This document shows, one piece after another, positions 1 through 41,356 of a stretch of 64,000 nt of DNA (positions are counted from its first letter, which is position 1; each line of letters begins with the position of its first letter). A program made the translations under genes and the position numbers. The notes beneath the pieces were generated by a model. The model was not told the origin of the DNA, made no database searches, and was given only the letters and a program-made list of their open reading frames with translations. The stretch is taken from assembly GCA_964627095.1 (NCBI GenBank), contig CAZVKH010000001.1, forward strand, positions 8,451 to 72,450. Direction: 5' to 3'. The DNA is from an uncultured Candidatus Saccharibacteria bacterium. Its GTDB lineage: Bacteria > Patescibacteriota > Saccharimonadia > Saccharimonadales > JAUPVS01.

Positions 1-849
1 AGACCTGTCGTACTGTATGAATCAGGCGATACTACTACCGAAAACATCTTAATGGCCGCTGCTTGTACACCTGGTGAAACCGTAATCAAGATGGCCAGCG
101 CCAACTACATGGTGCAAGACTTGTGTTTTTACTTGCAAAAAATGGGCGTCAAAATTAGCGGCATCGGTAGTAGCACCTTGCGCGTTCAAGGCTTGAAAGA
201 AATAAAAAAGAATGTCACTTACGCCCCCAGCGAAGACCCGGTTGAAGCCATGACTTTTGTGGCCGCCGCCATTACAACCGACTCCGAAATCACCATCAAA
301 AGAGTGCCGATAGAATTTATGGAATTAGAGTTATTGAAGCTGGAAAAGATGGGCCTTAACTATGTCATGACCAAGACCTACAAAGCCGAGAACGGCCAGA
401 CCGACCTAGTTGACCTAACCATCAAGAAGCACAATGGCAGCCTGATTGCCCCGCACGACAAGATTCACCCCAACATCTTCCCAGGCCTGAATATTGATCA
501 CCTGCCCTACTTTGTGCCCATCGCCGCCGTAGCCAAAGGTCGCACCCTGATTCACGACTGGGTTTACGAAGACCGCGCCCTGATGTATACCGAAATGAAA
601 AAAATTGGCGTCAGCGTCGAGCTAGCCGATCCGCACCGAGTTTATATAGAAGGTCCGACCCGCTTTAAGGCAGCCGACTTAGTTTGCCCCAGCGGTATTC
701 GCCCGGCCGTTATGATTTTGATTGGCATGTTGGCGGCTCCCGGTAACTCGATGCTACGTAACGTCTACACCATCAACCGTGGTTACGAAGATTTGGCCGA
801 TCGTCTGAATTCTTTAGGCGCCAAAATCACCGTTCTACACGAGCTATAG
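1..849 (+). CDS. murA: UDP-N-acetylglucosamine 1-carboxyvinyltransferase MurA, C-terminal part; the gene begins upstream of the window
   Basis: The frame is open from position 1 (RPVVLYESGDTTTENILMAAACTPGET...), and the listed M at 52 is an internal Met. The sequence matches MurA C-terminal domain conservation. Confidence 0.85.
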   Translation, partial: RPVVLYESGDTTTENILMAAACTPGETVIKMASANYMVQDLCFYLQKMGVKISGIGSSTLRVQGLKEIKKNVTYAPSEDPVEAMTFVAAAITTDSEITIKRVPIEFMELELLKLEKMGLNYVMTKTYKAENGQTDLVDLTIKKHNGSLIAPHDKIHPNIFPGLNIDHLPYFVPIAAVAKGRTLIHDWVYEDRALMYTEMKKIGVSVELADPHRVYIEGPTRFKAADLVCPSGIRPAVMILIGMLAAPGNSMLRNVYTINRGYEDLADRLNSLGAKITVLHEL

Positions 850-883: not shown

Positions 884-961
884 TGGGGCGAATGATGGGG
901 ATCGAACCCACTACCTCCGGAACCACAACCCGGCGCTCTAACCAGATGAGCTACATTCGCC
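884..961 (-). tRNA. tRNA-His (GTG)
   Basis: The reverse complement folds as a cloverleaf with anticodon loop ttGTGgt. It has an extra 5' G(-1) opposite the discriminator C and an encoded CCA. Confidence 0.85.
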
Positions 962-1011
962 TTAAACAGGGGTGATTATAGCGCATTAGCGGCATAACAA
1001 CAAGCTGTACA

Positions 1012-1088
1012 TGGTGCCCCGGGTAGGACTCGAACCTACGGCCTTGAGCTTAGAAGTCTCCTGCTCTATCCAACTGAGCTACCAGGGC
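1012..1088 (-). tRNA. tRNA-Arg (TCT)
   Basis: Acceptor GCCCUGG/CCGGGGC, D-arm GCUC-AGUUGGAUA-GAGC, anticodon loop cuUCUaa and an encoded CCA. Confidence 0.85.
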
Positions 1089-1096
1089 ACATATGA

Positions 1097-1171
1097 TGGT
1101 GCGGGATACCGGAGTCGAACCGGTGTCCAAAGTTTGGAAAACTTTTATATTAACCGCTATACGAATCCCGC
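1097..1171 (-). tRNA. tRNA-Gly (TCC)
   Basis: Acceptor GCGGGAU/AUCCCGC, anticodon loop uuUCCaa, T-arm GGUUCGACUCC and an encoded CCA. Confidence 0.85.
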
Positions 1172-1200: not shown

Positions 1201-3627
1201 CTAACCTCGCTCGTCGAGCGTAGCTAACAATTCGGGGGCATCCAGCAACAGTACCTGCCCTGGGCTGGCCGTACCGGCTAGCAGCCGTTGCGCCACGACG
1301 TTTTCTACCGACCGCTGCACAACTCGGCGCAAGGGTCGGGCACCCAAACGGGGGTCATAACCTTTGTCTACAAGTAGCGCCTTGGCGGCATCGGTCAGGC
1401 TAACCGAAATTTTACGGCTTGCCAGAGTCTTATTAATACTGCCCATTAACAGGTCGACCACTTGCATCAGTTCTGGCTTAGTAAGTGGACGGAATAATAT
1501 AATCTCATCAAAACGGTTAATGAACTCAGGACGGAAGACGTTAGCATTGATAAGCTCGTTGACCAGCTCGTCTTCGAACTGCTCGAGCTGCTGGCCCTGG
1601 TCTATGCGCGCCCGAATATTCTCGGCGCCGGCGTTACTGGTGGCAATAATAATTGAGTCTCTAAAACTGATCGGTTTATTCTGTGAATCACGCAACATAC
1701 CTTCGTCGAGTAATTGCAGAAGCAGGTTCAGTACGTTGGGGTGGGCCTTTTCAATTTCATCAAATAAGACCACACTAAAGGGTTGTTTGGCAATTTGGGC
1801 ACATAGACTATAGGGGTCGGTGGCGCCGGTCGCCAGCAATCGGTTGGTGTCGTCGGGGTGCGAAAACTCATTAAGGTCAATTCGCACAATGCGGTCTTGA
1901 CCACCAAAATAGACATCGGCTAACGCCTTAGAAAGCTCGGTTTTTCCAACCCCGGTTGGGCCCAAGAACAAGAAAGTACCAATCGGCTTCTTTTCGTTAC
2001 CAACGCCAGTGCGGGCGCGTCTTAAAGCATCGCTCACCAGCTTAACGGCGCGCGTTTGGTTGATCATTCGTTGGTGAATCTTGGCCTCTAAGTTCAAAAG
2101 GGTATCTTTTTCTTCAAAGGTATCGGCTGTCTGGACCTTAATATCGAAGGATTTTTCGACACCCTGCTGAACTGAGCGGGCCGTAACAAAATGCTGCTGC
2201 TCCGGAAAGCCACAGGCTACATCAAGCAGCTTGAGTGCCTTACCAGGGAAGGCCTGCTCATGGATGTAGCGTTCGGCTAACTTGTAGGCCTCTTTAATGG
2301 CTTGATTCATTAGCACGACGCCATGTTTACCTTCGATAATTAATGTTTGATCTTCGATTACCTGAATAGTCTCTTCTTCGTTCAGCGGATTGACCACCAC
2401 TCGGTTTAGCGACTGGGTAAAGCCTGGGCTGGTTTGGGCAATCCTTAGCCATTCCTGATTGTCTAATGCCAATATAATCTTAAGGGCACCGCCTTCTAGA
2501 ACTGGCATCAGTACGCTGGACAAGTCCACAGAACCAGTACCTTCCCTTAGGAATAGCTGGGCTTCATCCAAGAACAAGACAACGTTCTTGGCGTGAATCG
2601 CTTCGTTAAAAATATGGATTAATAGTTCTTCAAGCTCACCCTTACCCTTGGCATTAGCGATCAGGTGTGATGCATTCAGCTCAATTACCTGCTGGTAACG
2701 CAAGTTCTGGGGAACATTTTTGGAATCTTGCAGAAGCCGCTGGGCCATGGTGTAGACCAGGGTTGTTTTTCCAACCCCAACATCACCCACCAAGACAGCG
2801 TTACGGCGACCAGGTTGAGCTAGTAAATGGATAATCTGATCAATTGTTTGGGCACGGCTATCGACTGGACGACGCAAGATGCCACCAGATTGCAAACCGT
2901 TGGTTATATTAAAGCCAACGTGGTTCAAAACTGGTGCCCAACCAAAACTAAGATCGCGGCCGACACCCCCGTAATGCCGCTTTTCGCGTTGGCGGTCGCG
3001 CATCATCCGCATATGATGACGCCAACTTACACCTCCCAGCACATCGTCACTATCAAGCTGTAGCTGAGCCAGGTGATGCTCATAGTGCGGTATCGACATT
3101 ACCAACCCAGCCACCAGAACAGCCGAATCGATCCGATCACTCGAAGTTGCCCGCGCAACATTAAGAGCAGTCTGCCAAACAACCGATTCTTGGGAACTCT
3201 CGGTCGATGACAGATTCTGCAAAAACTCCGGACCAATCGCAAAACGGGACCCGTAGAAATAGGCGCCCTGTTCATTGGCGACAAGTTTAGCCAGTGCCTG
3301 CGGTGACATATTGGGCTGCATCTTGGCCAATAGGCGCCGGCTAAGGACATCACTGACATCGCTGACAGTTTCGATTGACGATATCGGCGGCAAGTCCTTA
3401 AGCTCGCCGTAGTACCAAAAAAGCGGCATGGCTAGAGTGCCACTTAGGGCAAATAGTATATGGGCAATCATCTGCTGCTCAAAAAACACCCCCCAGAACC
3501 AAAAGAATAATGACAATACCACCGCCAACCAAGTGATTAGCCGCACAGATTGGTTATCTAAAATCTTTCCAAAGCGGGCTTTGGTGGCACGTGGACTTTG
3601 CAAATTGCAGTGAATCGGTGGGTTCAT
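1201..3627 (-). CDS. membrane-anchored double-AAA+ Clp/Hsp100-family ATPase (ClpA/B-like, no M-domain, no ClpP-docking loop evident)
   Basis: Two Walker A motifs (GDVGVGKTT and GPTGVGKTE), a DEAQLF Walker B, a second-region motif FDEIEKAHPNVLNLLLQLLDEG and TSNAG. Two N-terminal hydrophobic helices (ITWLAVVLSLFFWFWGVFF and ILFALSGTLAMPLFWYY). The spacing between the two Walker A motifs is about 275 aa, as in ClpA. Confidence 0.75.
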   Translation of the reverse strand: MNPPIHCNLQSPRATKARFGKILDNQSVRLITWLAVVLSLFFWFWGVFFEQQMIAHILFALSGTLAMPLFWYYGELKDLPPISSIETVSDVSDVLSRRLLAKMQPNMSPQALAKLVANEQGAYFYGSRFAIGPEFLQNLSSTESSQESVVWQTALNVARATSSDRIDSAVLVAGLVMSIPHYEHHLAQLQLDSDDVLGGVSWRHHMRMMRDRQREKRHYGGVGRDLSFGWAPVLNHVGFNITNGLQSGGILRRPVDSRAQTIDQIIHLLAQPGRRNAVLVGDVGVGKTTLVYTMAQRLLQDSKNVPQNLRYQQVIELNASHLIANAKGKGELEELLIHIFNEAIHAKNVVLFLDEAQLFLREGTGSVDLSSVLMPVLEGGALKIILALDNQEWLRIAQTSPGFTQSLNRVVVNPLNEEETIQVIEDQTLIIEGKHGVVLMNQAIKEAYKLAERYIHEQAFPGKALKLLDVACGFPEQQHFVTARSVQQGVEKSFDIKVQTADTFEEKDTLLNLEAKIHQRMINQTRAVKLVSDALRRARTGVGNEKKPIGTFLFLGPTGVGKTELSKALADVYFGGQDRIVRIDLNEFSHPDDTNRLLATGATDPYSLCAQIAKQPFSVVLFDEIEKAHPNVLNLLLQLLDEGMLRDSQNKPISFRDSIIIATSNAGAENIRARIDQGQQLEQFEDELVNELINANVFRPEFINRFDEIILFRPLTKPELMQVVDLLMGSINKTLASRKISVSLTDAAKALLVDKGYDPRLGARPLRRVVQRSVENVVAQRLLAGTASPGQVLLLDAPELLATLDERG

Positions 3628-3999
3628 TTACCTACCCCTACTACCATCATTACCAAGCTAATCGGGAAGGCGAATGGTGCCAACGGCCACAAAGCAATAA
3701 AGATAACCCCGCTCAAAAATGCCAATAAGGCTACAAATAAACCTGTGAAGATGATGAAGCTGCGCGCAAAAAACCCGACAAAGCGTGAGATAACGTTATC
3801 CAAAAGAGCGTGCATCTGTACATCAATCGACCCACCGGCTTGGCTATAAGTTTGCTTAAAGGGCGAGAACCAAGTTTGTGCCAACGCTAAAATCGAAAAG
3901 GTTTCGTTGCACCACTTGAGCCTATCAACAATCGCTTTTTGCATCGCCCATTGCCAACCAGCACCGTACCACCAGCGGAGTCCAAGAAGAATGACCATA
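3624..3999 (-). CDS. small polytopic membrane protein, co-operonic with the Clp-like ATPase; the table ORF starts at GTG 4094, first ATG is 3999
   Basis: Three hydrophobic helices. A 4-nt overlap with the downstream clp-like gene suggests translational coupling. TACAAT lies 7 nt before the ATG at 3999 (leaderless layout). Confidence 0.5.
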
Positions 4000-4055
4000 A
4001 CCAGTATTGTATCAGATAGCGCCAGAGAGCACACTTCTTGATATACTATAGGAAC

Positions 4056-5894
4056 ATGAAAAAACTTATCCACTATTTCAAGACTTACAAACACTTGGGC
4101 ATCGTCATCCTAGCCATAATTATGGCCGGAGCACTCGACCTAGGTGGCTACGAACGCTATGCCAACATTGTTTTAGGCGTAACCGCTTCGTTATCGGTTA
4201 TTCCATTACTCCTAGGCATGGTTCAAGACTTACGGGACGGCCAGTACGGTGTTGATATCCTTGCCGCCACCGCCATCATTTCTTCGGTGGCTCTGGGTGA
4301 ATACTGGGCCGGTATTGTTGTCGTATTAATGTTAACTGGTGGTGAATCGCTCGAAGATTACGCCGAACACCGGGCTAAGACCGAACTCGATGCCTTGCTC
4401 AGCCGAGCACCAAAGAAAGCTCACATTCTAAAAGGCAATAAGGTTACTGATGTGCTGGCCAGCAAGGTTCAGACCAACGACAAGCTTATTATTAAGCCCG
4501 GTGAGTTGGTGCCAGTCGATGCCGTTGTCATCGAAGGTCATGCCAGTCTTGACGAATCTAGCCTAACCGGTGAAAGCTTGCCGGTCGAAAAACACGCTGG
4601 CGATGAGCTACTCAGTGGTTCGGTTAACCTGGATGGCGTTCTGACCGTTAAAGCACTGCGACCGGCCGCCGACAGTCAGTACGAACAAATCATTAAGCTG
4701 GTGCGCGGTGCAGCCAGTAACCAATCACCATTTGTACGCCTGGCCGATAAATATAGTATTCCCTTCACGATTGTTGCCTACACCATCGCTATTAGCGTCT
4801 GGGTGGCTTCAGGTGACCCAATTAGATTTTTGCAAGTAATTATTGTCGCCACCCCTTGCCCACTATTACTAGCGGCGCCAATCGCATTAATATCCGGAAT
4901 GAGCCGAGCAGCGCGTCACGGTATTATAATTAAAACTGGCTCGGCCTTAGAAAAACTGGCTCAAGTAAAAACTATTGCCCTCGACAAAACCGGTACGTTA
5001 ACGGTAGGTAAGCCAGTTGTTGGTTCGATCAAGACTTTCAATAAACATAGTCAAAATAGTGTCCTGTCAGCAGCGGCCAGCCTTGAACAGGATTCAAACC
5101 ACATTTTAGCCAAGGCCGTTGTTGCCAAAGCCAACCAGGCAAACATTAAGACCTCTAAGGTAAAGAGCCTGCGTGAAGAAGCTGGTTACGGGTTAAGCGG
5201 CCTGGTTAACCGACAGCCTGTTTTAGTTGGCAATGCCTCACTCTTGCTTAAGCACGACGTTGACCTACCCAAGAAACTCCAAGACATGGCGGCCACAACC
5301 GCCTTTGTCGCCATAGACGGCGTCCTGGCTGGTACAATTGAATTTACCGATGAAGTCCGCCCGGAGTCTAAGTCAACGCTTCAGAGGCTCCGTGATGCCG
5401 GTGTACAGCACATTCTTATGATCACCGGCGATAACGTTGCAAGCGCCAAAGCAATTGCCAAAAAAGTTGGCATAAAAGATGTTCGAGCCAACTGCTTACC
5501 AGCCGACAAATTAACTGCTGTCGAAAATATTACCAACCGACCAGTTGCTTTTGTGGGTGATGGCGTTAACGACGCACCAGTTCTGACAGCCTCGGATGTT
5601 GGCATTGCTCTGGGTGCACGTGGCTCAGCGGCGGCCAGTGAATCAGCTGATGTAGTAATTATGCTCGACGACTTTGGTCGAGTCGCCACATCTGTAGAAA
5701 TCGCCAAGCGCACCTTCTTTATTGCTAAGCAAAGTATCCTGATTGGCATTTTTATTAGCGTCGGCTTAATGTTAATTTTTGCCACCGGTAAATTTAAGCC
5801 TATTTATGGTGCTGCTCTGCAAGAAGTCGTTGACGTGGCGGTTATCTTTAATGCCTTACGTGCCCACGGTTCTTGGCGCAAAAAAACTAGCTAG
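4056..5894 (+). CDS. P-type cation-transporting ATPase (P1B-like, no N-terminal metal-binding domain); the table ORF begins at TTG 4038
   Basis: DKTGTLT phosphorylation motif, GDGVNDAP hinge, TGES actuator motif and a membrane PCP(L) motif. TATACT lies 8 nt upstream of the ATG at 4056. Confidence 0.85.
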   Translation: MKKLIHYFKTYKHLGIVILAIIMAGALDLGGYERYANIVLGVTASLSVIPLLLGMVQDLRDGQYGVDILAATAIISSVALGEYWAGIVVVLMLTGGESLEDYAEHRAKTELDALLSRAPKKAHILKGNKVTDVLASKVQTNDKLIIKPGELVPVDAVVIEGHASLDESSLTGESLPVEKHAGDELLSGSVNLDGVLTVKALRPAADSQYEQIIKLVRGAASNQSPFVRLADKYSIPFTIVAYTIAISVWVASGDPIRFLQVIIVATPCPLLLAAPIALISGMSRAARHGIIIKTGSALEKLAQVKTIALDKTGTLTVGKPVVGSIKTFNKHSQNSVLSAAASLEQDSNHILAKAVVAKANQANIKTSKVKSLREEAGYGLSGLVNRQPVLVGNASLLLKHDVDLPKKLQDMAATTAFVAIDGVLAGTIEFTDEVRPESKSTLQRLRDAGVQHILMITGDNVASAKAIAKKVGIKDVRANCLPADKLTAVENITNRPVAFVGDGVNDAPVLTASDVGIALGARGSAAASESADVVIMLDDFGRVATSVEIAKRTFFIAKQSILIGIFISVGLMLIFATGKFKPIYGAALQEVVDVAVIFNALRAHGSWRKKTS

Positions 5895-6541
5895 AATAAG
5901 GCTGTCTGTAAAACTACAGTAATAAGCAGGGGTACAAACAAGTTGTCGGTTCCAGCTACGGCTAGATTCTCTATAGCGGTGGCGGCCAAGGGTAGCCAGA
6001 TAAGTAAAGGCACAAGTGGCCAGGTCAAAACAGTCCCGCTAAGTATCACTGTGCCGGTTACTATAGTTAACGATAACGTAAAGAACATCAAGGTCCCGAC
6101 CAATGTCTTGGTGTAGTTACGAATACTGTATTTATGGATAATCCCGTACTTGGTGCCTACTATCGCTGCCAGACCATCAGCCAGAGACAGATGTAAAATG
6201 GCGGCTGTAAAGACTATTGGTTCTGGTGTTAACAGAGCCGTGACGCCTATTCCAATTGGAAAAAACAACTCTCCCCAGGTGCGACGATTAACGCTGTGAA
6301 CAGCATGAAAAATATGCTGTTGCATCGATATTATAATGACAGCCAAAAAGGCCAGGCTCATAAACTCTATTTCGCGCCAGGTTAAAAAATATGGCCAAAA
6401 GGCCACAAAGGTACCAACACCAATATGCACAAACTTGCGCGCCGACTCACCGCGCATAACTTTTAGGCGCCACAGTAGCTCAGAAACTGCCAGTATCGTA
6501 AACACCCCAGTTAAAGCTAACAGGAGTGGCACGTACTGCAT
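5891..6541 (-). CDS. polyprenol/dolichol/phytol-kinase-family integral membrane protein (CTP-dependent kinase family)
   Basis: The motif SARKFVHIGVGTFVAFWPYF resembles the VTE5/dolichol-kinase signature. Polytopic. It abuts the tatC stop. Confidence 0.45.
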   Translation of the reverse strand: MQYVPLLLALTGVFTILAVSELLWRLKVMRGESARKFVHIGVGTFVAFWPYFLTWREIEFMSLAFLAVIIISMQQHIFHAVHSVNRRTWGELFFPIGIGVTALLTPEPIVFTAAILHLSLADGLAAIVGTKYGIIHKYSIRNYTKTLVGTLMFFTLSLTIVTGTVILSGTVLTWPLVPLLIWLPLAATAIENLAVAGTDNLFVPLLITVVLQTALF

Positions 6542-7516
6542 CTACTTATTGGGCCTAAGATCTAGGAAGTTAGCGCTTTGTAAGTTCTGTAACTGGCGTG
6601 GTGCAATGTCGAAGGTTGGTCGCTTAACATGAGTTGCAACCGAACGTCTCTGCAAGACTGGCTCAATAAAGGCCGGGCGGGGTGCTGGCTGCGGTGACAC
6701 CTTGGGGGCCGGTGGCAACTGTGATGGGTGTTTTCGGCGCTGTTCTTTGGCAGCAGCCTGTGCAGCGGCATACTTTTTGGCCGCCTTGGCCCGGCGATTT
6801 GCTTTTCGGTTAGCTAGATACACAAAGAATACCGACAAGTTATACAGCAGTATTATCGGTAGAGCGATTAGGAATTGCGTTAGTGGGTCGTAGGTAAATG
6901 GCAAAACCAGGGCCAGGGCCAAACTGCCGACAATAACGTGGCGCTCGTACTTAAGCAGCTTGCGCGGTGACATCGGCTTGATGTGGTTGATGAACAAAAT
7001 AAGCAAAGGCAACTGGAACAGTAATATAAACGTCAGTATGCAAGCCAGTGCGAAGTTAAGGTAGTCGTCGGCTGATATAAGCGGATTAACACCTGTGATT
7101 TCGACACCCTGAAAGAAATGCAAGGACATTGGTAAGGCGCCAAAATATGCAAAGGCGGCGCCGGCTACTCCTAGGGTCAAGGAAAGAAGCGTCACCATGG
7201 TAATAAGGCGGCGGGTGATTTTTTTACCAACAGCTGGTTCAATAAACGATATTATATTGTAGATTAGAGCCGGTATAGCCAGGGTTATGCCCAGGATAAA
7301 GCAGATCTTCATAATAAAGTTGAACCCACCAGCCGGCGTGGTGTAGTAAAGCTGCTGGTTGAGCGGGGCCGTCATAAAGACGATTAGCTGATCATGAAAC
7401 ATATAGGCCACACCGGCACCCACTAGCAATAGCAATGCTGGCCAGGTCAGCCGGCGACGCAGTTCCTGGACATGTCCAGAAAAAGTTAGCTTTGGTTCCA
7501 TGATCTGCCCATCCAT
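6542..7516 (-). CDS. tatC: Sec-independent protein translocase TatC with a roughly 80-aa basic Ala/Pro-rich C-terminal extension
   Basis: N-terminal HVQELRRRL motif and six predicted TM helices. The C-terminal tail AKAAKKYAAAQAAAKEQRRK...PAPKVSPQPAPRP is not typical of TatC. Confidence 0.85.
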   Translation of the reverse strand: MDGQIMEPKLTFSGHVQELRRRLTWPALLLLVGAGVAYMFHDQLIVFMTAPLNQQLYYTTPAGGFNFIMKICFILGITLAIPALIYNIISFIEPAVGKKITRRLITMVTLLSLTLGVAGAAFAYFGALPMSLHFFQGVEITGVNPLISADDYLNFALACILTFILLFQLPLLILFINHIKPMSPRKLLKYERHVIVGSLALALVLPFTYDPLTQFLIALPIILLYNLSVFFVYLANRKANRRAKAAKKYAAAQAAAKEQRRKHPSQLPPAPKVSPQPAPRPAFIEPVLQRRSVATHVKRPTFDIAPRQLQNLQSANFLDLRPNK

Positions 7517-7543: not shown

Positions 7544-7726
7544 CTAGGCTTTTTTGGTGGCTTTTGACTTAGTAGCAGGCTCTGGTTCGTCGGCATCTGC
7601 AAAACCTTTGCGGATTTCTTTAGCCGACTGACCGACACTGCGTGCTAGTTCTGGTAGCTTTTTAGCACCAAACAGCAACAAAACAATCAATAAAACGATA
7701 ATTAATTCGTCTGTTTTTCCAAACAT
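7544..7726 (-). CDS. tatA: twin-arginine translocase subunit TatA/E
   Basis: MFGKTDELIIVLLIVLLLFGAKKLPELARSVGQSAKEIRKGF matches the TatA signature (FG hinge, amphipathic helix). GGAGGG ribosome-binding site upstream. Confidence 0.9.
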   Translation of the reverse strand: MFGKTDELIIVLLIVLLLFGAKKLPELARSVGQSAKEIRKGFADADEPEPATKSKATKKA

Positions 7727-7799: not shown

Positions 7800-8027
7800 C
7801 TAAGAGCCTAAGATACTGCTTTTGACAGGGTTGCCGCCATAAGCCGACGAACCATAACCACTGGCCGCGCCCCGGCTCTGTTGACTGCTAGAGGTTGCGC
7901 CATGGTGCAATAAAGCCTTGATCATACCACTCACCCCGATTGCTGCTAAAAAGCCAGCACCAATATAACCAAGGAACTCTTTGCGGTCCATTTCCTTTTC
8001 AAAAATTGCTTGTATGTGTTTATGCAT
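7800..8027 (-). CDS. hypothetical small protein with a central hydrophobic helix and Gly/Ser-rich tail
   Basis: ORF with ATG start and one TM-like segment (LGYIGAGFLAAIGVSGMI). No homology recognised. Confidence 0.3.
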   Translation of the reverse strand: MHKHIQAIFEKEMDRKEFLGYIGAGFLAAIGVSGMIKALLHHGATSSSQQSRGAASGYGSSAYGGNPVKSSILGS

Positions 8028-8234: not shown

Positions 8235-8723
8235 ATGATTTATATACAACACACATTCAAGATGTTTATGGGCAAAGTTTCGGCCTCTATTGTGGTGTTT
8301 TTGTTTGTTGCTGGGATGGTTCTTACGCCGGCTTCTGCTTTGGCAGCCACTCCCGACTATAGTTGCGGGGCTTACGGTGGCAACGACTATAACAGTAACT
8401 GTCCAACCGACCCTAGTACCCCTAGCTCAAGTAGCAGTTCCTCTAGCAGCTCGACTGGCAGTAGTTCTAGCGACGGAGCGGCGGCCGACACGCCGACAAC
8501 TTCGGATACTACAACTACAACCGACGACAGCACCGCTATCGATACAAACGACAAAAGTTCTTCTACCACCAAGACAGCTGCCGAAGAAGAAGCTGGTACG
8601 TCTAATAGCAGCCGCTGGCTTTTGTTCGGCTTCTCGCTCTTTCTGCTCCTGCTAGCTCTATGGCTGATCTTCTTCTTGCTCAAGCGCCGCAAGCGCCAGC
8701 AAGAAGACAAACCAATGTTCTAG
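8235..8723 (+). CDS. secreted Ser/Thr-rich low-complexity protein with C-terminal TM anchor and basic tail
   Basis: Signal peptide (MFMGKVSASIVVFLFVAGMVLTPASALA), poly-Ser/Thr tract, and C-terminal WLLFGFSLFLLLLALWLIFFLLKRRKRQQ. No LPXTG motif. Confidence 0.6.
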   Translation: MIYIQHTFKMFMGKVSASIVVFLFVAGMVLTPASALAATPDYSCGAYGGNDYNSNCPTDPSTPSSSSSSSSSSTGSSSSDGAAADTPTTSDTTTTTDDSTAIDTNDKSSSTTKTAAEEEAGTSNSSRWLLFGFSLFLLLLALWLIFFLLKRRKRQQEDKPMF

Positions 8724-31601: not shown

Positions 31602-33520
31602 TATTTTTTCTTCTTGTCTTCTTTTTCGTCGTCGACGACTTCGCCTTCGACTGGTTCGTCTTTGTCGGACTTCTTGTCACCGTCTTCGGCTGGGGCTTCT
31701 TCTTTGGCAGCTTCTTCATAAAGCTTGGCGCCAATTGGCATAGTCTTGTCGGTTAGCTCCTTGGCAGCGGCTTCTAGGGCATCTTTGTCGGCCTTGTCGT
31801 CAGCTACAACTTTTTTAGCATCTTCAACGGCTTCTTCGATTACCTTCTTGTCGTCATCGCTAATCTTGTCTTTATTGTCGGCAATCATCTTCTCGGCCTG
31901 ATAGACAGAACTGTCTAGGGTATTGCGGGCATCAATTGCTTCGCGCTTTTTCTTGTCCTCTTCGGCATGAGCTTCGGCTTCTTTAGCCATTTTTTCGACT
32001 TCTTCTTTAGAAAGGCCCGAGCTGTTTTGGATAGTAATACTCTGTTCCTTACCCGAACCCTTGTCCTTGGCCGAGACATTCAAGATACCGTTGGCATCCA
32101 AGTTAAAAGTAACTTCAATCTGGGGAACACCGCGGGGGGCCGATGGAATACCATCGAGCACAAAACGTCCGAGTGACTTGTTGTCGGCGACCATTTCACG
32201 CTCACCTTGGACAACGTGGATTTCTACTTGTGGTTGGTTGTCGGCAGCAGTACTAAAGGTTTCGGACTTGCTGGTTGGAATTGTCGTGTTACGTTCAATC
32301 AGTTTAGTCGCGACGCCACCAAGCGTTTCGATACCAAGACTAAGTGGTGTTACGTCTAGCAAAAGCACGTCTTTAACGTCACCCTGCAAGACACCACCTT
32401 GAATGGCGGCACCAATGGCCACAACTTCGTCGGGGTTAACACCCTTCATTGGTTCTTTGCCAAAGATGTTCTTAACCTTTTCTTGAACGGCCGGCATACG
32501 GGTCATACCACCAACCAGAACAATGGCATCGATGTCACTGGCTTTTAGGCCAGCGTCTTTAAGGGCCTTTTCGCAAGGAATAGCTGTTTTGTCGATTAGC
32601 TCGCCAACCAAGCTTTCCAACTTAGAGCGAGTCAGCTTGTGCTCAAAGTGCTTAGGACCATCGGCGTCGGCTGTTAAGAATGGCAGGTTAATGTTGATTT
32701 CGTTAGTGGTACTAAGCTCGATCTTGGCCTTTTCGGCTTCGTCACGCAGACGCTGCATAGCAGCTTTGTCGTCGGTAATGTCTAGGCCGTGTTCTTTTTT
32801 GAACTCGTCGGCAAAGTAGTTTACTAAAACGCGGTCGAAGTCGGCACCACCTAGGTGAGTGTCACCATTGGTGGACTTAACTTCAAAGACACCGTCACCC
32901 AGTTCCAAAATGGAAACATCGAAGGTACCACCACCAAGGTCGTAAACGGCAATTTTTTCGTCTTTCTTACTGCCCTTGTCCAAACCGTAGGCTAAAGCCG
33001 CGGCAGTTGGTTCGTTGATAATACGCTTGACTTCTAAGCCGGCAATTTTACCAGCATCTTTAGTAGCTTGGCGCTGTGAGTCATCAAAGTAAGCCGGTAC
33101 GGTAATAACAGCCTCGGTAACGCTGTCGCCCAAAAAGCTTTCGGCGTCAGTTTTAAGCTTGCCCAAGATCATGGCACTAACTTCTTCGGGGCTGTATTCT
33201 TTGTCGCCCATCTTTACCTTAACGCCGTTACCAGACTTAACCATCTCGTAACCCATTAGCTTGATGTCGCGCTGAACTTCTTTGTCGTTCCAGTTGCGAC
33301 CAATTAGGCGCTTTACTTCGTAAATTGTATTGCCGGGGTTAGTAACTTGCTGGCGGCGAGCTACCTGGCCGACTAATCTTTCGCCATTTTTATTGACGGC
33401 GACGACTGACGGCGTGGTGCGCGCACCTTCTGAGTTAGCAATAATTTCTGGCTTACCAGCCTGCATAACAGCCATGGCTGAGTTAGTTGTTCCTAGGTCG
33501 ATTCCGATGATTTTTCCCAT
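31601..33520 (-). CDS. dnaK: chaperone DnaK (Hsp70)
   Basis: [17 protein letters not shown] and an acidic C-terminal tail. Confidence 0.97.
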
Positions 33521-39472: not shown

Positions 39473-41356
39473 CTAGTAAAGAGCGGCTTCGGTAGGCATC
39501 TTAGCGCCTTTTAAGATTTCGATGACTTCGGGGGCATCAACCGTCTCTTTTTCGAGCAAGGCTTTCTTGAGTGCTTCTAGCTTGTCTTTATTTGACTTAA
39601 TGACTAGCTTGGCGCGACGGGCGGCTTCGGATATCAATGACTCAATTTCATCGTCAATAATCTTGGCGGTGTCTTCGGAGTACTGACGTTCGTGCATTAG
39701 TTTGTCCATCATAATACCTTCATCGGTGTGGAAGACTTGGTTGCGCAGCTTACCGCTACCCATACCTTGGTTAACAATCATGTCGCGCGCTAGGTCGGCG
39801 GCGGCTGGGAGGTCTGAACCAGCTCCAGTGGTAACGTGATCAGGCCCGTACATAATTTCTTCGGCAATGCGGCCACCCAACATACGTGCCAGGACGTCTT
39901 TAAATTCAACAATGCTGTGATAACTTTTATCTTCGGGTGGGATAGACCAGGTGACACCGCCGGTACCGCCTCGGGGGATAATCGTGACCTTGTGAATAGG
40001 ATCGCTGTCCGGCAAGATGTGACCGACAATGGCGTGGCCGGCTTCGTGGTAGGCCGTCATTTCTTTTTCTTTTTCGCTCATAATCTTGCTCTTGCGCTCG
40101 GGGCCGATGGCAATCTTTTCAAAGGCACCAGTTACATCGGATTGAGTGATTTCTTTTTTGTTATGGCGGGCAGCCAAAATGGCGGCTTCGTTAGCAATAT
40201 TAGCCAAGTCAGCACCAGACGAACCGGCTGATTTTGCGGCTAGGGCATCGAGGTCAACCGACTTAGACAGTGGTTTCTTTTGGAAATGAACTTTTAGGAT
40301 AGCTTCACGGTCTTTGCGATCGGGCAAACCAATATTAACGCGCCGGTCAAACCGACCAGGTCGTAGAAGAGCTGGGTCAAGTACATCGGCGCGGTTGGTA
40401 GCGGCTAAGACAATGACGTTCTGGCCTTGTTCAAAGCCGTCCATTTCTACCAAGATCTGGTTAAGGGTTTGTTCACGTTCGTCGTGTCCACCACCCATAC
40501 CAGAACCACGCTTACGCCCCACGGCATCAATTTCATCAACAAAGATAATACATGGTGAGTTCTTTTTGGCTTTAGCAAATAAGTCACGGACGCGGCTGGC
40601 ACCGACACCAACAAACATTTCAACAAACTCAGAACCAGAAATACTAAAGAAGGGCACGTTGGCTTCGCCGGCGACAGCTCGGGCCAACATCGTCTTACCG
40701 GTACCAGGAGGCCCCACTAGTAATACGCCCTTAGGAATCTTGGCACCAACGCCTTCGAACTTTTTGGGGAACTTTAGGAATTCGACGACTTCTTCGAGGT
40801 CTTGTTTGGCTTCGTCGCTACCGGCAACTTTTTTAAAAGTTACCTTATCTTTTTCGTTGCCATACAAACGAGCCTTGCTCTTACCAAAGCTCATTGCTTG
40901 GTTACCCTGGCCTTGGGCGCTACGCAACATAAAGAACAGTACACCGCTAATTAATATGACTGGCAATATACCGCTTAATAGTGATACCCACAGGCTACCA
41001 GTATTAGGATCGGGTTGCGGGTTAACGGTTAGGCCTTCGACGTCCTTATTCAGCCCCTGGTCGTAAATGCTTGAGCCGGCTTCTTTATAGGACTGTTCGG
41101 TAGGCTTATCTTGATCTTTCTTAGTGACAAGCACTTCGTTGCCCTTGATAGTTAGCTCTTTAGTTTGGCCGGCATTGGCTTCTTCGACCACCTTAGACAA
41201 GGGAACTTTGGTGAGTTTGCTCGGTTGATTGTAGGCAGCAAAAACTACCATACCAAACAAAATAATTATGGCCACTAAAGCTAGGTTTTTGAGGCCACGC
41301 TTACCGGCGCTCGGCTTTTGGGGGCTACGAGAATTTCGAAAAGGTTTTTTATCCAT
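39473..41356 (-). CDS. ftsH: ATP-dependent zinc metalloprotease FtsH
   Basis: Two N-terminal TM helices, AAA module ([13 protein letters not shown]), second region of homology, and HEAGHA zinc motif. Confidence 0.97.

What the first reader, a model, noticed from the sequence alone, without database searches (positions are those of the whole stretch)
1201..3999. Membrane-anchored ClpA/B-type double-AAA+ unfoldase in an operon with a small polytopic membrane protein
The 808-aa product has two complete AAA+ modules typical of Hsp100/Clp proteins, but it begins with two transmembrane helices where a soluble Clp N-domain would be. It has no M-domain (Walker A spacing about 275 aa) and no recognisable IGF/IGL ClpP-docking loop. 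Its upstream partner (3624..3999) overlaps it by 4 nt and is a small three-helix membrane protein. Canonical ClpA/B/C/V proteins are soluble. A membrane-tethered Hsp100 with a dedicated membrane partner suggests a membrane-protein extraction/quality-control or secretion-associated unfoldase, of a kind not described in standard Clp systems.
Basis: partly seen in the sequence, partly recalled or inferred. Interest (0 to 1): 0.55.

Follow-up and report, generated by a model that had tools for sequence, protein, structure and literature searches.

The report
Membrane-anchored two-subunit Hsp100 ATPase of Saccharibacteria
Two overlapping genes encode a Clp/Hsp100-type double-ring ATPase that is anchored in the cell membrane and always paired with a small membrane protein; this variant, seen only in Saccharibacteria, lacks the usual substrate-gripping loops and has not been described.

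Summary
Window 1201..3627(-) encodes an 808-aa ClpB/ClpC-related double-AAA+ protein with an N-terminal transmembrane hairpin. It has no M-domain and no ClpP-docking loop. Its start overlaps by 4 nt the stop of a small membrane-protein gene, whose true extent is 3624..3998, 124 aa.

- The hairpin does not replace the N-domain. A divergent Clp_N-like helical domain follows it.
- The partner has two transmembrane helices plus a Trp-rich, non-membrane-spanning N-terminal helix.

New findings:
- The pair is adjacent, with start/stop overlap, in every evaluable locus (48 two-gene loci). In one lineage the two are fused into a single protein.
- The N-terminal module matches only 263 of 1.84 billion representative proteins. 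Every full-length match is a Clp-like protein of about 800 aa.
- Both canonical pore-loop tyrosines are missing.
- D2 is catalytically intact. D1 has lost its Walker-B glutamate in much of the family.
- A cultivated Saccharibacterium also carries canonical ClpC and ClpP. Its probable orthologue pair is dispensable, and both genes show the same late growth defect in Tn-seq.

Best reading: an obligate two-subunit, ClpP- and DnaK-independent membrane Hsp100 that acts on membrane-associated clients. The function is inferred. It is a new variant of a known kind.

The parts
1201..3627 (-). Large subunit: 808-aa membrane-anchored ClpB/ClpC-related double-AAA+ ATPase
   Evidence: ORF. Pfam AAA, AAA_lid_9, AAA_2, ClpB_D2-small. 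Scores are below every NCBIfam equivalog cut-off. More than 120 orthologues of 804-819 aa in Saccharibacteria.
3624..3998 (-). Small subunit: 124-aa membrane protein with no Pfam family, translationally coupled to the ATPase
   Evidence: Homologues are 118-127 aa and start at this ATG. It lies immediately upstream in all evaluable loci. It is fused to the ATPase in P0407.
3624..3627 (-). ATGA start/stop overlap (translational coupling)
   Evidence: Read directly from the sequence. Start/stop overlap is found in 48/48 two-gene loci, and 40 of these are 4-nt overlaps.
3562..3594 (-). Basic amphipathic N-terminal helix of the ATPase (aa 12-22; R13, K16, A17, R18 conserved)
   Evidence: AF2 helix 12-22. 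Conserved in A1 and in the wide alignment.
3478..3552 (-). ATPase transmembrane helix 1 (aa 26-50)
   Evidence: Kyte-Doolittle 2.14. Approximate dG -1.9. AF2 helix with pLDDT above 90.
3400..3471 (-). ATPase transmembrane helix 2 (aa 53-76), ending in the conserved WYYGEL motif
   Evidence: Kyte-Doolittle 1.65. Approximate dG +2.8, which is marginal. AF2 helix. W71, G74, E75 and L76 are invariant in A1.
2983..3339 (-). Divergent Clp_N-like eight-helix domain (aa 97-215)
   Evidence: AF2 model. The top ~40 Foldseek PDB hits are almost all Clp N-domains, probability up to 0.99. hhalign to the second Clp_N repeat gives P 0.002, against 0.5 for a reversed control. The TIGR02639 alignment starts at residue 142 = model position 77. 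Pfam Clp_N is not detected.
2902..2973 (-). Family-specific, highly conserved linker GG[IV][GA]RD[LW]xFG[WY][AT]PxL...N (aa 219-242)
   Evidence: Invariant G220, G221, R224, D225, G229, P232, L234 in the close and wide alignments. Its role is unknown.
2107..2862 (-). D1 AAA+ module (aa 256-507). Walker A is intact; Walker-B Glu, sensor-1 and Arg finger are not conserved across the family; there is no M-domain insertion.
2632..2655 (-). D1 pore loop without an aromatic residue (NAKGKGEL in place of the KYRGEFE of ClpB/ClpC)
   Evidence: PDB alignments. No aromatic in 120 close relatives. The loop is variable and non-aromatic in the wide set.
1252..1989 (-). D2 AAA+ module plus D2-small (aa 547-792). 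All catalytic motifs are invariant; there is no ClpP-docking loop.
   Evidence: Walker A, Walker B, sensor-1, Arg finger and sensor-2 are conserved 52/52. ClpP tripeptide 0/120 and 0/52.
1795..1839 (-). Shortened D2 pore loop 1 (aa 597-611, LLATGATDPYSLCAQ): 5 residues shorter than GAPPGYVGYEEGG, with the GYVG tyrosine gone
   Evidence: Alignments to ClpB 1qvr and ClpC 3j3t. Y606 is invariant only in the close clade and is not conserved in the wide family.
3945..3995 (-). Small subunit N-terminal Trp-rich helix (aa 2-18, RWWYGAGW). Probably interfacial rather than membrane-spanning.
   Evidence: W9, W10, Y11 and G14 are invariant. AF2 helix 2-34. Approximate dG +6.5.
3633..3773 (-). Small subunit transmembrane hairpin (aa 76-98 and 100-122; invariant G97, W104, P105, P108)
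   Evidence: Hydropathy, alignment, AF2 helix 58-120. In the fusion protein P0407 this hairpin takes the place of the ATPase's own hairpin.
4006..4072 (-). Candidate promoter region of the pair (TGGATA-16-TATAGT at 4072-4045; TGATACAAT at 4014-4006)
   Evidence: Consensus matches only. Not evidence of function.

Best explanation
The two overlapping genes encode the two subunits of a membrane-embedded Hsp100-type ATPase that was found only in Saccharibacteria.

The large subunit is related to ClpB/ClpC. From N- to C-terminus it has:
- a basic amphipathic helix;
- a transmembrane helical hairpin with an external loop of only 2-3 residues;
- a divergent Clp_N-type domain;
- a strongly conserved family-specific linker;
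- D1;
- D2.

The small subunit has a Trp-rich N-terminal helix, about 55 cytoplasmic residues, and its own transmembrane hairpin.

Shown:
- This architecture.
- Strict gene pairing with start/stop overlap, and a natural fusion of the two proteins.
- Restriction of all named members but one to Saccharibacteria.
- Absence of the M-domain, of the ClpP loop and of both canonical pore-loop tyrosines.
- Full conservation of the D2 catalytic motifs, with relaxed D1 motifs.

Inferred:
- The subunits are made in a fixed ratio and assemble into a hexamer. Its N-domain/D1 (substrate-entry) face is pinned to the cytoplasmic side of the membrane by up to 24 transmembrane helices.
- D2 is the motor. D1 mainly binds nucleotide and holds the ring together.
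- The machine works without ClpP or DnaK.
- Because it lacks gripping pore loops, it pulls on or remodels a restricted set of membrane-embedded or membrane-attached clients, or the small-subunit assembly itself. It does not processively unfold proteins in general.
- It is an accessory system. A cultivated relative keeps canonical ClpC and ClpP, and its probable orthologues are dispensable with a late growth defect.
For: Domains and motifs.

Transmembrane hairpin: hydropathy and conservation; AF2 model with pLDDT 83.

Clp_N-like fold.

Partner gene: adjacent in 46/48 loci. Of the other two, L042 is masked by Ns but still shows the partner's start, and L048 is cut at the locus edge. The partner is also present in the divergent loci L049 and L050. 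Start/stop overlap in 48/48 loci.

Rosetta-stone fusion: P0407 residues 5-117 match the small-protein profile at E 6e-24, and the Clp_N-like domain and AAA+ modules follow directly. The same junction appears in a second assembly, P0365.

Family limits: 263 hits among 1.84e9 representatives, and every full-length hit is 777-840 aa. All 43 genome loci come from Saccharibacteria or Saccharimonadales.

Genetics (PMC10633639, Tables S1 and S2): SEML1_0700 has the same Pfam coordinates as this protein and no Clp_N. SEML1_0701 is a 127-aa overlapping upstream gene. Both are called NE/NE/GD. The same genome has ClpC (SEML1_0512) and ClpP (SEML1_0493).
Against: - No direct evidence for hexamer formation, for a physical complex with the small protein, or for any substrate. 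I could not predict the complex.
- Missing pore-loop tyrosines mean the 'pulling' step has no identified structural basis.
- The second helix of each hairpin is only marginally hydrophobic (approximate dG +2.8 and +3.1). I had no dedicated topology predictor.
- Orthology of SEML1_0700/0701 rests on domain coordinates and gene context, not on sequence. The shared Tn-seq phenotype could partly reflect polarity of insertions in the upstream gene.
- The Clp_N assignment is fold-level only: Foldseek E about 0.3; Pfam and a PDB profile search found nothing.
Confidence: 0.45

Rival explanations
1. Non-threading switch, Torsin-like. The ATPase does not translocate polypeptides. ATP binding and hydrolysis in D2 drive conformational changes, passed through D1, the N-domain and the hairpins, that assemble, disassemble or gate an oligomer of the small membrane protein or a neighbouring membrane complex.
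For: Both canonical pore-loop aromatics are missing and D2 loop 1 is shortened. D1 is degenerate. The membrane partner is obligate, stoichiometric and fusable. The family-specific linker is highly conserved and its role is unexplained.
Against: The D2 Arg finger and all other catalytic motifs are intact, so no partner-supplied finger is needed as it is in Torsin. A Clp_N-type domain, normally a substrate or adaptor binding module, is retained. No target complex is identifiable in the neighbourhood.
Confidence: 0.25
2. General disaggregase or unfoldase that happens to be tethered to the membrane. It would be a ClpB substitute handling soluble misfolded proteins in a very small cell.
For: Overall it is closest to ClpB and ClpC. 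DnaK and FtsH lie in the same window. No ClpB-type protein turned up in the S. epibionticum tables beyond ClpC and this protein.
Against: There is no M-domain for DnaK coupling and no pore-loop tyrosines, both of which ClpB-type disaggregation requires (established knowledge of ClpB; absences shown). This reading does not explain the strictly co-inherited membrane partner. The phenotype is only a mild growth defect.
Confidence: 0.12
3. Motor of a membrane conduit. The ring of 12+12 transmembrane helices forms a channel coaxial with the AAA+ pore, through which a protein or other polymer is moved across, or pulled out of, the membrane.
For: N-terminal anchoring places the D1 entry face against the membrane (inference). 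Hairpins from both subunits could form a ring. Known parallels are PTEX HSP101-EXP2 and Bcs1 (established knowledge).
Against: The external loops are only 2-4 residues and there is no extracellular domain. The TM helices have few conserved polar residues. There are no pore-loop aromatics. No secretion-system genes are consistently adjacent. The genes are dispensable in co-culture.
Confidence: 0.1
4. [quoted passage not shown]
For: Database names. ClpP exists in Saccharibacteria.
Against: The docking tripeptide is absent in 0/120 and 0/52 members, and the ClpC VGF loop falls in an alignment gap. Scores are far below the ClpA and ClpC-type equivalog cut-offs. A canonical ClpC with Clp_N repeats and a UVR motif is present in the same kind of genome.
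Confidence: 0.03

Closest known systems
ClpB / ClpC (class I Clp/Hsp100 with AAA_2-type D2)
   Same: Two AAA+ modules with an AAA_lid_9 and a ClpB_D2-small domain. Best sequence matches are T. thermophilus ClpB (379 bits) and B. subtilis ClpC (360 bits). D2 is about half identical in the printed alignments. A Clp_N-like N-domain is present.
   Different: - Has an N-terminal transmembrane hairpin.
- Has no M-domain or UVR motif.
- Has no ClpP loop (versus ClpC).
- The D1 KYRG and D2 GYVG pore-loop tyrosines are absent.
- D1 Walker-B Glu is not conserved.
- Has an obligate small membrane subunit.
- Scores are one third of the equivalog cut-offs.
ClpA
   Same: Double AAA+ without an M-domain. The whole protein aligns to ClpA in a single stretch.
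   Different: ClpA is soluble, carries the IGL ClpP-docking loop and both pore-loop tyrosines, and scores lower (264 bits) than ClpB or ClpC.
FtsH
   Same: An N-terminal pair of transmembrane helices tethers an AAA+ ring whose entry face looks at the membrane. It acts on membrane proteins (established knowledge). FtsH is also present in this window.
   Different: FtsH has a single AAA module, a sizeable periplasmic domain between its TMs, an aromatic pore loop and a fused M41 protease. None of these is found here.
Msp1/ATAD1 and Bcs1 (N-terminally anchored AAA+ dislocase and translocase)
   Same: An N-terminal membrane anchor places the ring at the membrane. They act without a protease (established knowledge).
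   Different: Both are single-ring eukaryotic or organellar proteins of other AAA clades. Msp1 uses aromatic pore loops. Neither has a dedicated small hairpin subunit.
Torsin with LAP1/LULL1
   Same: A member of the Clp-D2-related clade that is membrane-associated, lacks aromatic pore-loop residues and depends on membrane-spanning partner proteins (PMC5425593, found; not read beyond the abstract, otherwise my own knowledge).
   Different: Torsin is a single-module eukaryotic luminal protein that lacks its own Arg finger. Here there are two modules, D2 has a complete catalytic set including R705, and the ATPase faces the cytoplasm.
Plasmodium PTEX (HSP101 + PTEX150 + EXP2)
   Same: A class I Hsp100 without a ClpP loop that works as part of a membrane machine (established knowledge; literature surfaced).
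   Different: HSP101 is not itself membrane-integrated. It keeps the M-domain and pore-loop tyrosines, and it docks through its D2 face onto a separate pore.

Membership tests
Class I Clp/Hsp100 (ClpA/B/C superfamily) | Two tandem AAA+ modules, the second of AAA_2 type followed by a ClpB_D2-small domain | tested here: met
   Pfam AAA 4.8e-18, AAA_lid_9 6.3e-11, AAA_2 1.4e-44, ClpB_D2-small 5.3e-23.
Class I Clp/Hsp100 (ClpA/B/C superfamily) | N-terminal Clp_N double-repeat domain | tested here: inconclusive
   Pfam Clp_N is not detected (1/31 members, at E 0.64). The PDB profile search was empty. However, the AF2 model's best Foldseek hits are almost all Clp N-domains (probability up to 0.99, E about 0.3), and hhalign to the second repeat gives P 0.002.
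Class I Clp/Hsp100 (ClpA/B/C superfamily) | Aromatic pore loops: D1 K-Y-R-G and D2 G-Y-V-G | tested here: not met
   D1 reads KG[KR]G, with no aromatic in 120 sequences. The D2 loop is 5 residues shorter and its tyrosine is not conserved in the wide family.
ClpB (TIGR03346) | Long coiled-coil M-domain inserted in the D1 lid; score above the equivalog cut-off | tested here: not met
   ClpB residues 393-545 have no counterpart. Score 426 bits against a cut-off of 1232.
ClpC | Short M-domain with UVR motif, and a VGF-type ClpP-docking loop in D2 | tested here: not met
   There are gaps at both positions in the alignment to B. subtilis ClpC 3j3t. No h-G-h tripeptide in 0/120 and 0/52 members. No UVR Pfam hit.
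ClpA (TIGR02639) | IGL ClpP-docking loop; score above the equivalog cut-off | tested here: not met
   372 bits against a cut-off of 993. No tripeptide.
ClpV/TssH (TIGR03345) | Score above the cut-off; type VI secretion genes nearby | tested here: not met
   313 bits against a cut-off of 885. No T6SS genes in any neighbourhood listing.
FtsH-type membrane AAA protease | Single AAA module fused to an M41 peptidase domain | tested here: not met
   No peptidase domain in the Pfam scan. A separate FtsH gene lies elsewhere in the window.
Torsin-like | Single AAA module lacking its own Arg finger, completed by a partner | tested here: not met
   Two modules. The D2 Arg finger R705 and sensor-2 are conserved 52/52.
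Anti-phage defence ClpB-like ATPases (e.g. Dodola DolB) | Full-length match to a PADLOC model; location in a variable defence island | tested here: not met
   Only partial AAA_2-region hits (DolB positions 102-285 of 375). The gene sits in conserved core synteny across Saccharibacteria.
Proposed new family (membrane Hsp100 plus hairpin subunit) | N-terminal basic helix + TM hairpin + WYYGEL, the GG[IV][GA]RD..FG[WY].P.L linker, and an overlapping upstream 120-130-aa WWYG-hairpin gene | tested here: met

The most novel reading that the evidence does not exclude
The six large and six small subunits build a new kind of integral-membrane Hsp100 machine. A ring of about 24 transmembrane helices is coaxial with a double AAA+ ring that has given up tyrosine pore loops. 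Instead it uses the invariant Gly/aromatic linker (GGIGRDLSFGWAP) and the Clp_N-like domains at the membrane face to seize and dislocate specific envelope proteins, or to gate a conduit, as part of the epibiotic lifestyle of Saccharibacteria.
Probability: 0.15. Interest if true: 0.85.

Novelty: new variant of a known kind. Interest (0 to 1): 0.62.

Why it matters
All characterised bacterial ClpA/B/C/E/L/V/G/K proteins are soluble and use tyrosine pore loops. I found no description of an integral-membrane member with an obligate hairpin subunit, no ClpP or DnaK interface and no canonical gripping loops. Such a protein would widen what the class I Hsp100 scaffold is known to do.

It would also point to a lineage-wide, unexplored membrane-proteostasis or membrane-remodelling activity in Saccharibacteria. 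These are ultrasmall epibionts whose envelope is central to their lifestyle.

Saccharibacteria are now genetically tractable, and Tn-seq shows the probable orthologues are dispensable but beneficial. Mutants, substrate traps and cryo-EM are therefore feasible. In practice, databases currently mislabel these proteins as 'ClpC, Clp protease ATP-binding subunit'.

Tried and rejected
- Pfam and NCBIfam on the small protein and on the N-terminal 262 residues, also at E up to 10 across alignment members: nothing meaningful.
- Profile search of the N-terminal region against PDB sequences: nothing.
- Foldseek of the small-protein model against PDB: only spurious long-helix matches with E above 3.
- PADLOC: only generic AAA hits, so the defence-system idea was dropped.
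- Idea that the ATPase hairpin module and the C-terminal half of the small protein are paralogues (both have LDNxxxR followed by a hairpin). hhalign picks that register but at E 0.35 and probability 0.2%, so this is not supported.
- Idea that the divergent heavy-metal P1B ATPase or the TatA/TatC genes belong to the system. They are adjacent in only 25/48 and 6/48 loci, so I treat them as neighbours only.
- ClpP and ClpX searched in the window and in the first five related loci (L001-L005): absent.
- Both structure-prediction jobs went to the N-terminal region and the small protein, so I made no full-length or complex model.
- Literature searches found no description of a membrane-anchored bacterial Hsp100.
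Full report
**What is there**

On the minus strand, window 1201..3627 is an 808-codon ORF. Pfam finds AAA (278-382), AAA_lid_9 (417-507), AAA_2 (547-709) and ClpB_D2-small (715-792). Walker A motifs lie at 281 and 556, and Walker B motifs at 350 and 619.

NCBIfam ranks ClpB, ClpA, ClpK/G and ClpV models highest. Every score is about a third of the curated cut-off, for example ClpB 426 against 1232 and ClpA 372 against 993. Against PDB sequences the best matches are T. thermophilus ClpB (379 bits) and B. subtilis ClpC (360 bits); ClpA scores 264. The protein is therefore a class I Clp/Hsp100 relative, but it does not belong to any named subfamily.

**Membrane anchor**

Residues 27-50 and 53-71 are the only strongly hydrophobic stretches in the protein. 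An AlphaFold2 model of residues 1-262, built from a 31-sequence alignment, has mean pLDDT 83. It shows a helix at 12-22 followed by two long helices at 26-50 and 53-76, all with pLDDT above 90.

The N-terminal segment is basic (R13, K16, R18, K21, R29). The inter-helix loop is only 2-3 residues. The ATPase must be cytoplasmic. Together these imply an N-in, C-in helical hairpin; this is inference, because I had no dedicated topology predictor.

A rough apparent-free-energy sum, using scale values recalled from memory, gives -1.9 for helix 1 and +2.8 for helix 2. That pattern fits a hairpin in which the second helix inserts cooperatively. The hydrophobic pair is present in 120/120 close homologues and in 35/35 distant full-length representatives.

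**The N-domain is not replaced**

After the hairpin the model shows an eight-helix bundle at residues 97-215. In a Foldseek search of the PDB, almost all of the top ~40 hits are Clp N-terminal domains: ClpC, ClpC1, ClpB, ClpD, ClpV and Plasmodium HSP101. Probabilities reach 0.99 and target-normalised TM-scores are 0.45-0.51, although E-values are only about 0.3.

Two further results point the same way:
- A local profile comparison aligns residues ~148-200 with the second Clp_N repeat of ClpC in the expected register (IDSAVLVAALI against VGTEHILLGLI). It gives P 0.002, against 0.5 for a reversed control.
- The TIGR02639 alignment begins at residue 142, which equals model position 77.

Pfam's Clp_N model and a PDB profile search detect nothing. 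I therefore call this a divergent Clp_N-like domain at fold level.

**What is missing from the motor**

- The alignments to ClpB and ClpC show no counterpart of the M-domain; ClpB residues 393-545 are absent.
- There is a gap exactly at the ClpC VGF ClpP-docking loop.
- No hydrophobic-Gly-hydrophobic tripeptide occurs between sensor-1 and the RPEF motif in any of 120 close or 52 diverse members.
- The D1 pore loop reads A-K-G-[KR]-G-[QE]-L-E instead of A-K-Y-R-G-E-F-E, with no aromatic residue in any of 120 sequences.
- D2 pore loop 1 is five residues shorter than GAPPGYVGYEEGG. The one tyrosine left in the window's clade (Y606) is replaced by L, T, N, H or S in more distant members.

**D1 and D2 differ in conservation (52 diverse sequences)**

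- D2 keeps everything 52/52: Walker A GKT, Walker B DE, sensor-1 N665, Arg finger R705 and sensor-2 GARPxRR.
- D1 keeps the Walker A lysine 52/52, but the Walker B glutamate in only 18/52 (N in 16, D in 15). Sensor-1 and the Arg-finger positions vary. In the close clade the D1 glutamate is present in 96/120.
- A family-specific linker between the N-domain and D1, GG[IV][GA]RD[LW]xFG[WY][AT]PxL, is nearly invariant. Its role is unexplained.

**The partner**

The upstream ORF should start at the ATG at 3998, giving 124 aa. Homologues are 118-127 aa and align from that methionine. No Pfam, NCBIfam or PADLOC family matches it, and its AF2 model (pLDDT 85) has no meaningful PDB neighbour.

It has three parts:
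- an invariant Trp-rich N-terminal helix (RWWYGAGW), which is too polar to span the membrane;
- about 55 residues of conserved cytoplasmic sequence;
- two C-terminal transmembrane helices joined by a 2-4-residue loop, with invariant G97, W104, P105 and P108.

**The two genes are one unit**

- I examined 48 related loci: 5 from protein look-ups and 43 from a scan of species-representative genomes, all Saccharibacteria or Saccharimonadales. The small gene lies immediately upstream in 46.
- Of the two exceptions, one locus is cut at the ATPase start. The other is masked by Ns, but the small protein's WWYGSGW start is still visible.
- Two much more divergent members also carry the small gene. In one of them the gene caller had missed it.
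- In all 48 two-gene loci the ATPase start codon overlaps the small gene's stop, by 4 nt in 40 of them. This indicates translational coupling.
- In one lineage the two are fused. In P0407 (854 aa; GCA_020639315.1, labelled Candidatus Nomurabacteria by its submitter), residues 5-117 match the small-protein profile at E 6e-24. They run straight into the Clp_N-like domain and the AAA+ modules, so the small protein's hairpin stands in for the ATPase's own. A partial protein from an independent assembly (P0365) has the same junction.
- The fused protein is about 78 residues shorter than the sum of the two parts. It is therefore a real deletion-fusion and not a frameshift artefact.
- The fusion also fixes the small protein's topology: its C-terminus is cytoplasmic.

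**Distribution**

A profile of the N-terminal 262 residues was searched against 1.84 billion representative proteins. It found only 263 matches. Every full-length match is a Clp-like protein of 777-840 aa, and the rest are fragments. The module therefore exists only in this family.

Other neighbours are less constant:
- a heavy-metal P1B ATPase (TIGR01525), in 25/48 loci;
- an unclassified 216-aa membrane protein, in 32/48;
- MurA, in 15/48;
- TatA/TatC, in 6/48.

**Outside evidence**

The supplementary tables of Wang et al. 2023 (PMC10633639) list three relevant entries for the cultivated Saccharibacterium Southlakia epibionticum:
- a ClpP (SEML1_0493);
- a canonical ClpC with two Clp_N repeats and a UVR motif (SEML1_0512);
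- separately, SEML1_0700, annotated 'AAA family ATPase'. Its Pfam coordinates (AAA 276-381, lid 415-471, AAA_2 544-706, D2-small 713-792, no Clp_N) match the protein studied here.

SEML1_0701, an overlapping 127-aa hypothetical gene, lies just upstream. MurT/GatD lie next door, as in locus L050.

Both genes receive the same Tn-seq calls, NE/NE/GD, with normalised reads falling 4124 to 2517 to 1638 and 258 to 157 to 51. The paper's text does not discuss them. I could not verify orthology at the sequence level, and insertions in the upstream gene may be polar.

If the assignment is right, the system is an accessory paralogue alongside ClpC/ClpP. It would be dispensable in co-culture but beneficial.

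**How it most likely works**

Shown:
- the architecture;
- the obligatory pairing and the fusion;
- the lack of ClpP, DnaK-coupling and pore-loop elements;
- an intact D2 and a relaxed D1.

Inferred:
- Like other Hsp100s, the protein forms a hexamer.
- The anchor is N-terminal and only about 20 residues separate it from the N-domain. The N-domain/D1 face, which is the usual substrate entrance, is therefore held against the cytoplasmic side of the membrane. It would be surrounded by up to 12 + 12 transmembrane helices and by the cytoplasmic parts of the small subunit.
- D2 supplies the power.
- Without tyrosine pore loops, a general processive unfoldase is unlikely.

I therefore favour an ATP-driven puller or remodeller of particular membrane-embedded or membrane-attached clients (confidence about 0.45 for the whole statement; about 0.9 for the architecture and two-subunit claim alone). 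A Torsin-like non-threading switch acting on the small-subunit assembly is the main rival (0.25). The other rivals are a tethered general disaggregase (0.12), a conduit motor (0.10) and a ClpP partner (0.03).

**Comparison with known systems, and novelty**

By sequence it is a derived ClpB/ClpC relative. By logic it resembles:
- FtsH or Msp1, in having an N-terminal anchor with the entry face at the membrane;
- p97, in having a weak D1 and a strong D2;
- Torsin with LAP1, in lacking aromatic pore loops and depending on a membrane partner.

It fails defining tests for ClpB, ClpC, ClpA, ClpV, FtsH and Torsin (see the membership table). Literature searches found no description of a membrane-integrated bacterial Hsp100 or of this family. 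Databases call it ClpC or 'AAA family ATPase'.

I rate it a new variant of a known kind, interest 0.62.

Noticed in passing
L051 6001-8565 (P0407; GCA_020639315.1 JACKGM010000001.1) and P0365: Natural fusion of the small membrane protein to the ATPase, with the ATPase's own N-terminal helix and hairpin deleted. The record is labelled Candidatus Nomurabacteria, the only non-Saccharibacteria label seen for the family.
   Followed up: partly
window 5891-6541 (-): A 216-aa polytopic membrane protein with no Pfam or NCBIfam match. It is conserved near the pair in 32/48 loci. Where the P-type ATPase is absent it lies co-directionally and directly upstream of the small gene (e.g. L017, L049), so it may be a third operon member. 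From memory its motifs resemble the polyprenol/dolichol kinase family; I did not test this.
   Followed up: partly
window 4038-5894 (+): Heavy-metal P1B-type ATPase (TIGR01525, 536 bits), divergently transcribed from the pair and sharing a promoter region of about 40-60 nt. Adjacent in 25/48 loci. It has no N-terminal metal-binding domain, and there is a PCP motif in the membrane domain.
   Followed up: partly
window 4006-4014 (-): TGATACAAT (extended -10-like) ends 7 nt upstream of the small gene's ATG, which suggests a leaderless or near-leaderless transcript. This is a consensus match only.
   Followed up: no
window 6542-7516 (-), 7544-7726 (-), 7800-8027 (-): TatC and TatA genes. Beside them (just upstream) is a 75-aa ORF whose N-terminus (DRKEFLGYIGAGFLAA) looks like a twin-arginine signal with RK in place of RR.
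   Followed up: no
window 8235-8723 (+): A 162-aa protein with a signal peptide, a long Ser/Thr-rich low-complexity region and a C-terminal TM helix followed by KRRKRQ. It looks like a surface-anchored mucin-like protein and has no LPXTG motif.
   Followed up: no
window 884-1171 (-): tRNA-Gly(TCC), tRNA-Arg(TCT) and tRNA-His(GTG) lie immediately downstream of the ATPase gene on the same strand, only about 30 nt after its stop codon.
   Followed up: no
window ~39929-40837 (-) and ~32426-33520 (-): FtsH and DnaK genes lie in the same 64-kb window. ClpP and ClpX are not in the window.
   Followed up: partly
L049 5603-6004: The public gene call misses the small-subunit gene and calls a 178-aa antisense ORF instead. 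Automatic annotations therefore under-report the pairing.
   Followed up: yes
window 52-849; L004, L005, L050; S. epibionticum SEML1_0694/0702/0703: Peptidoglycan-precursor genes (MurA, MurB, MurT/GatD) recur within a few kb of the pair in several lineages. This may be conserved synteny in small genomes or a hint of an envelope-related role.
   Followed up: no
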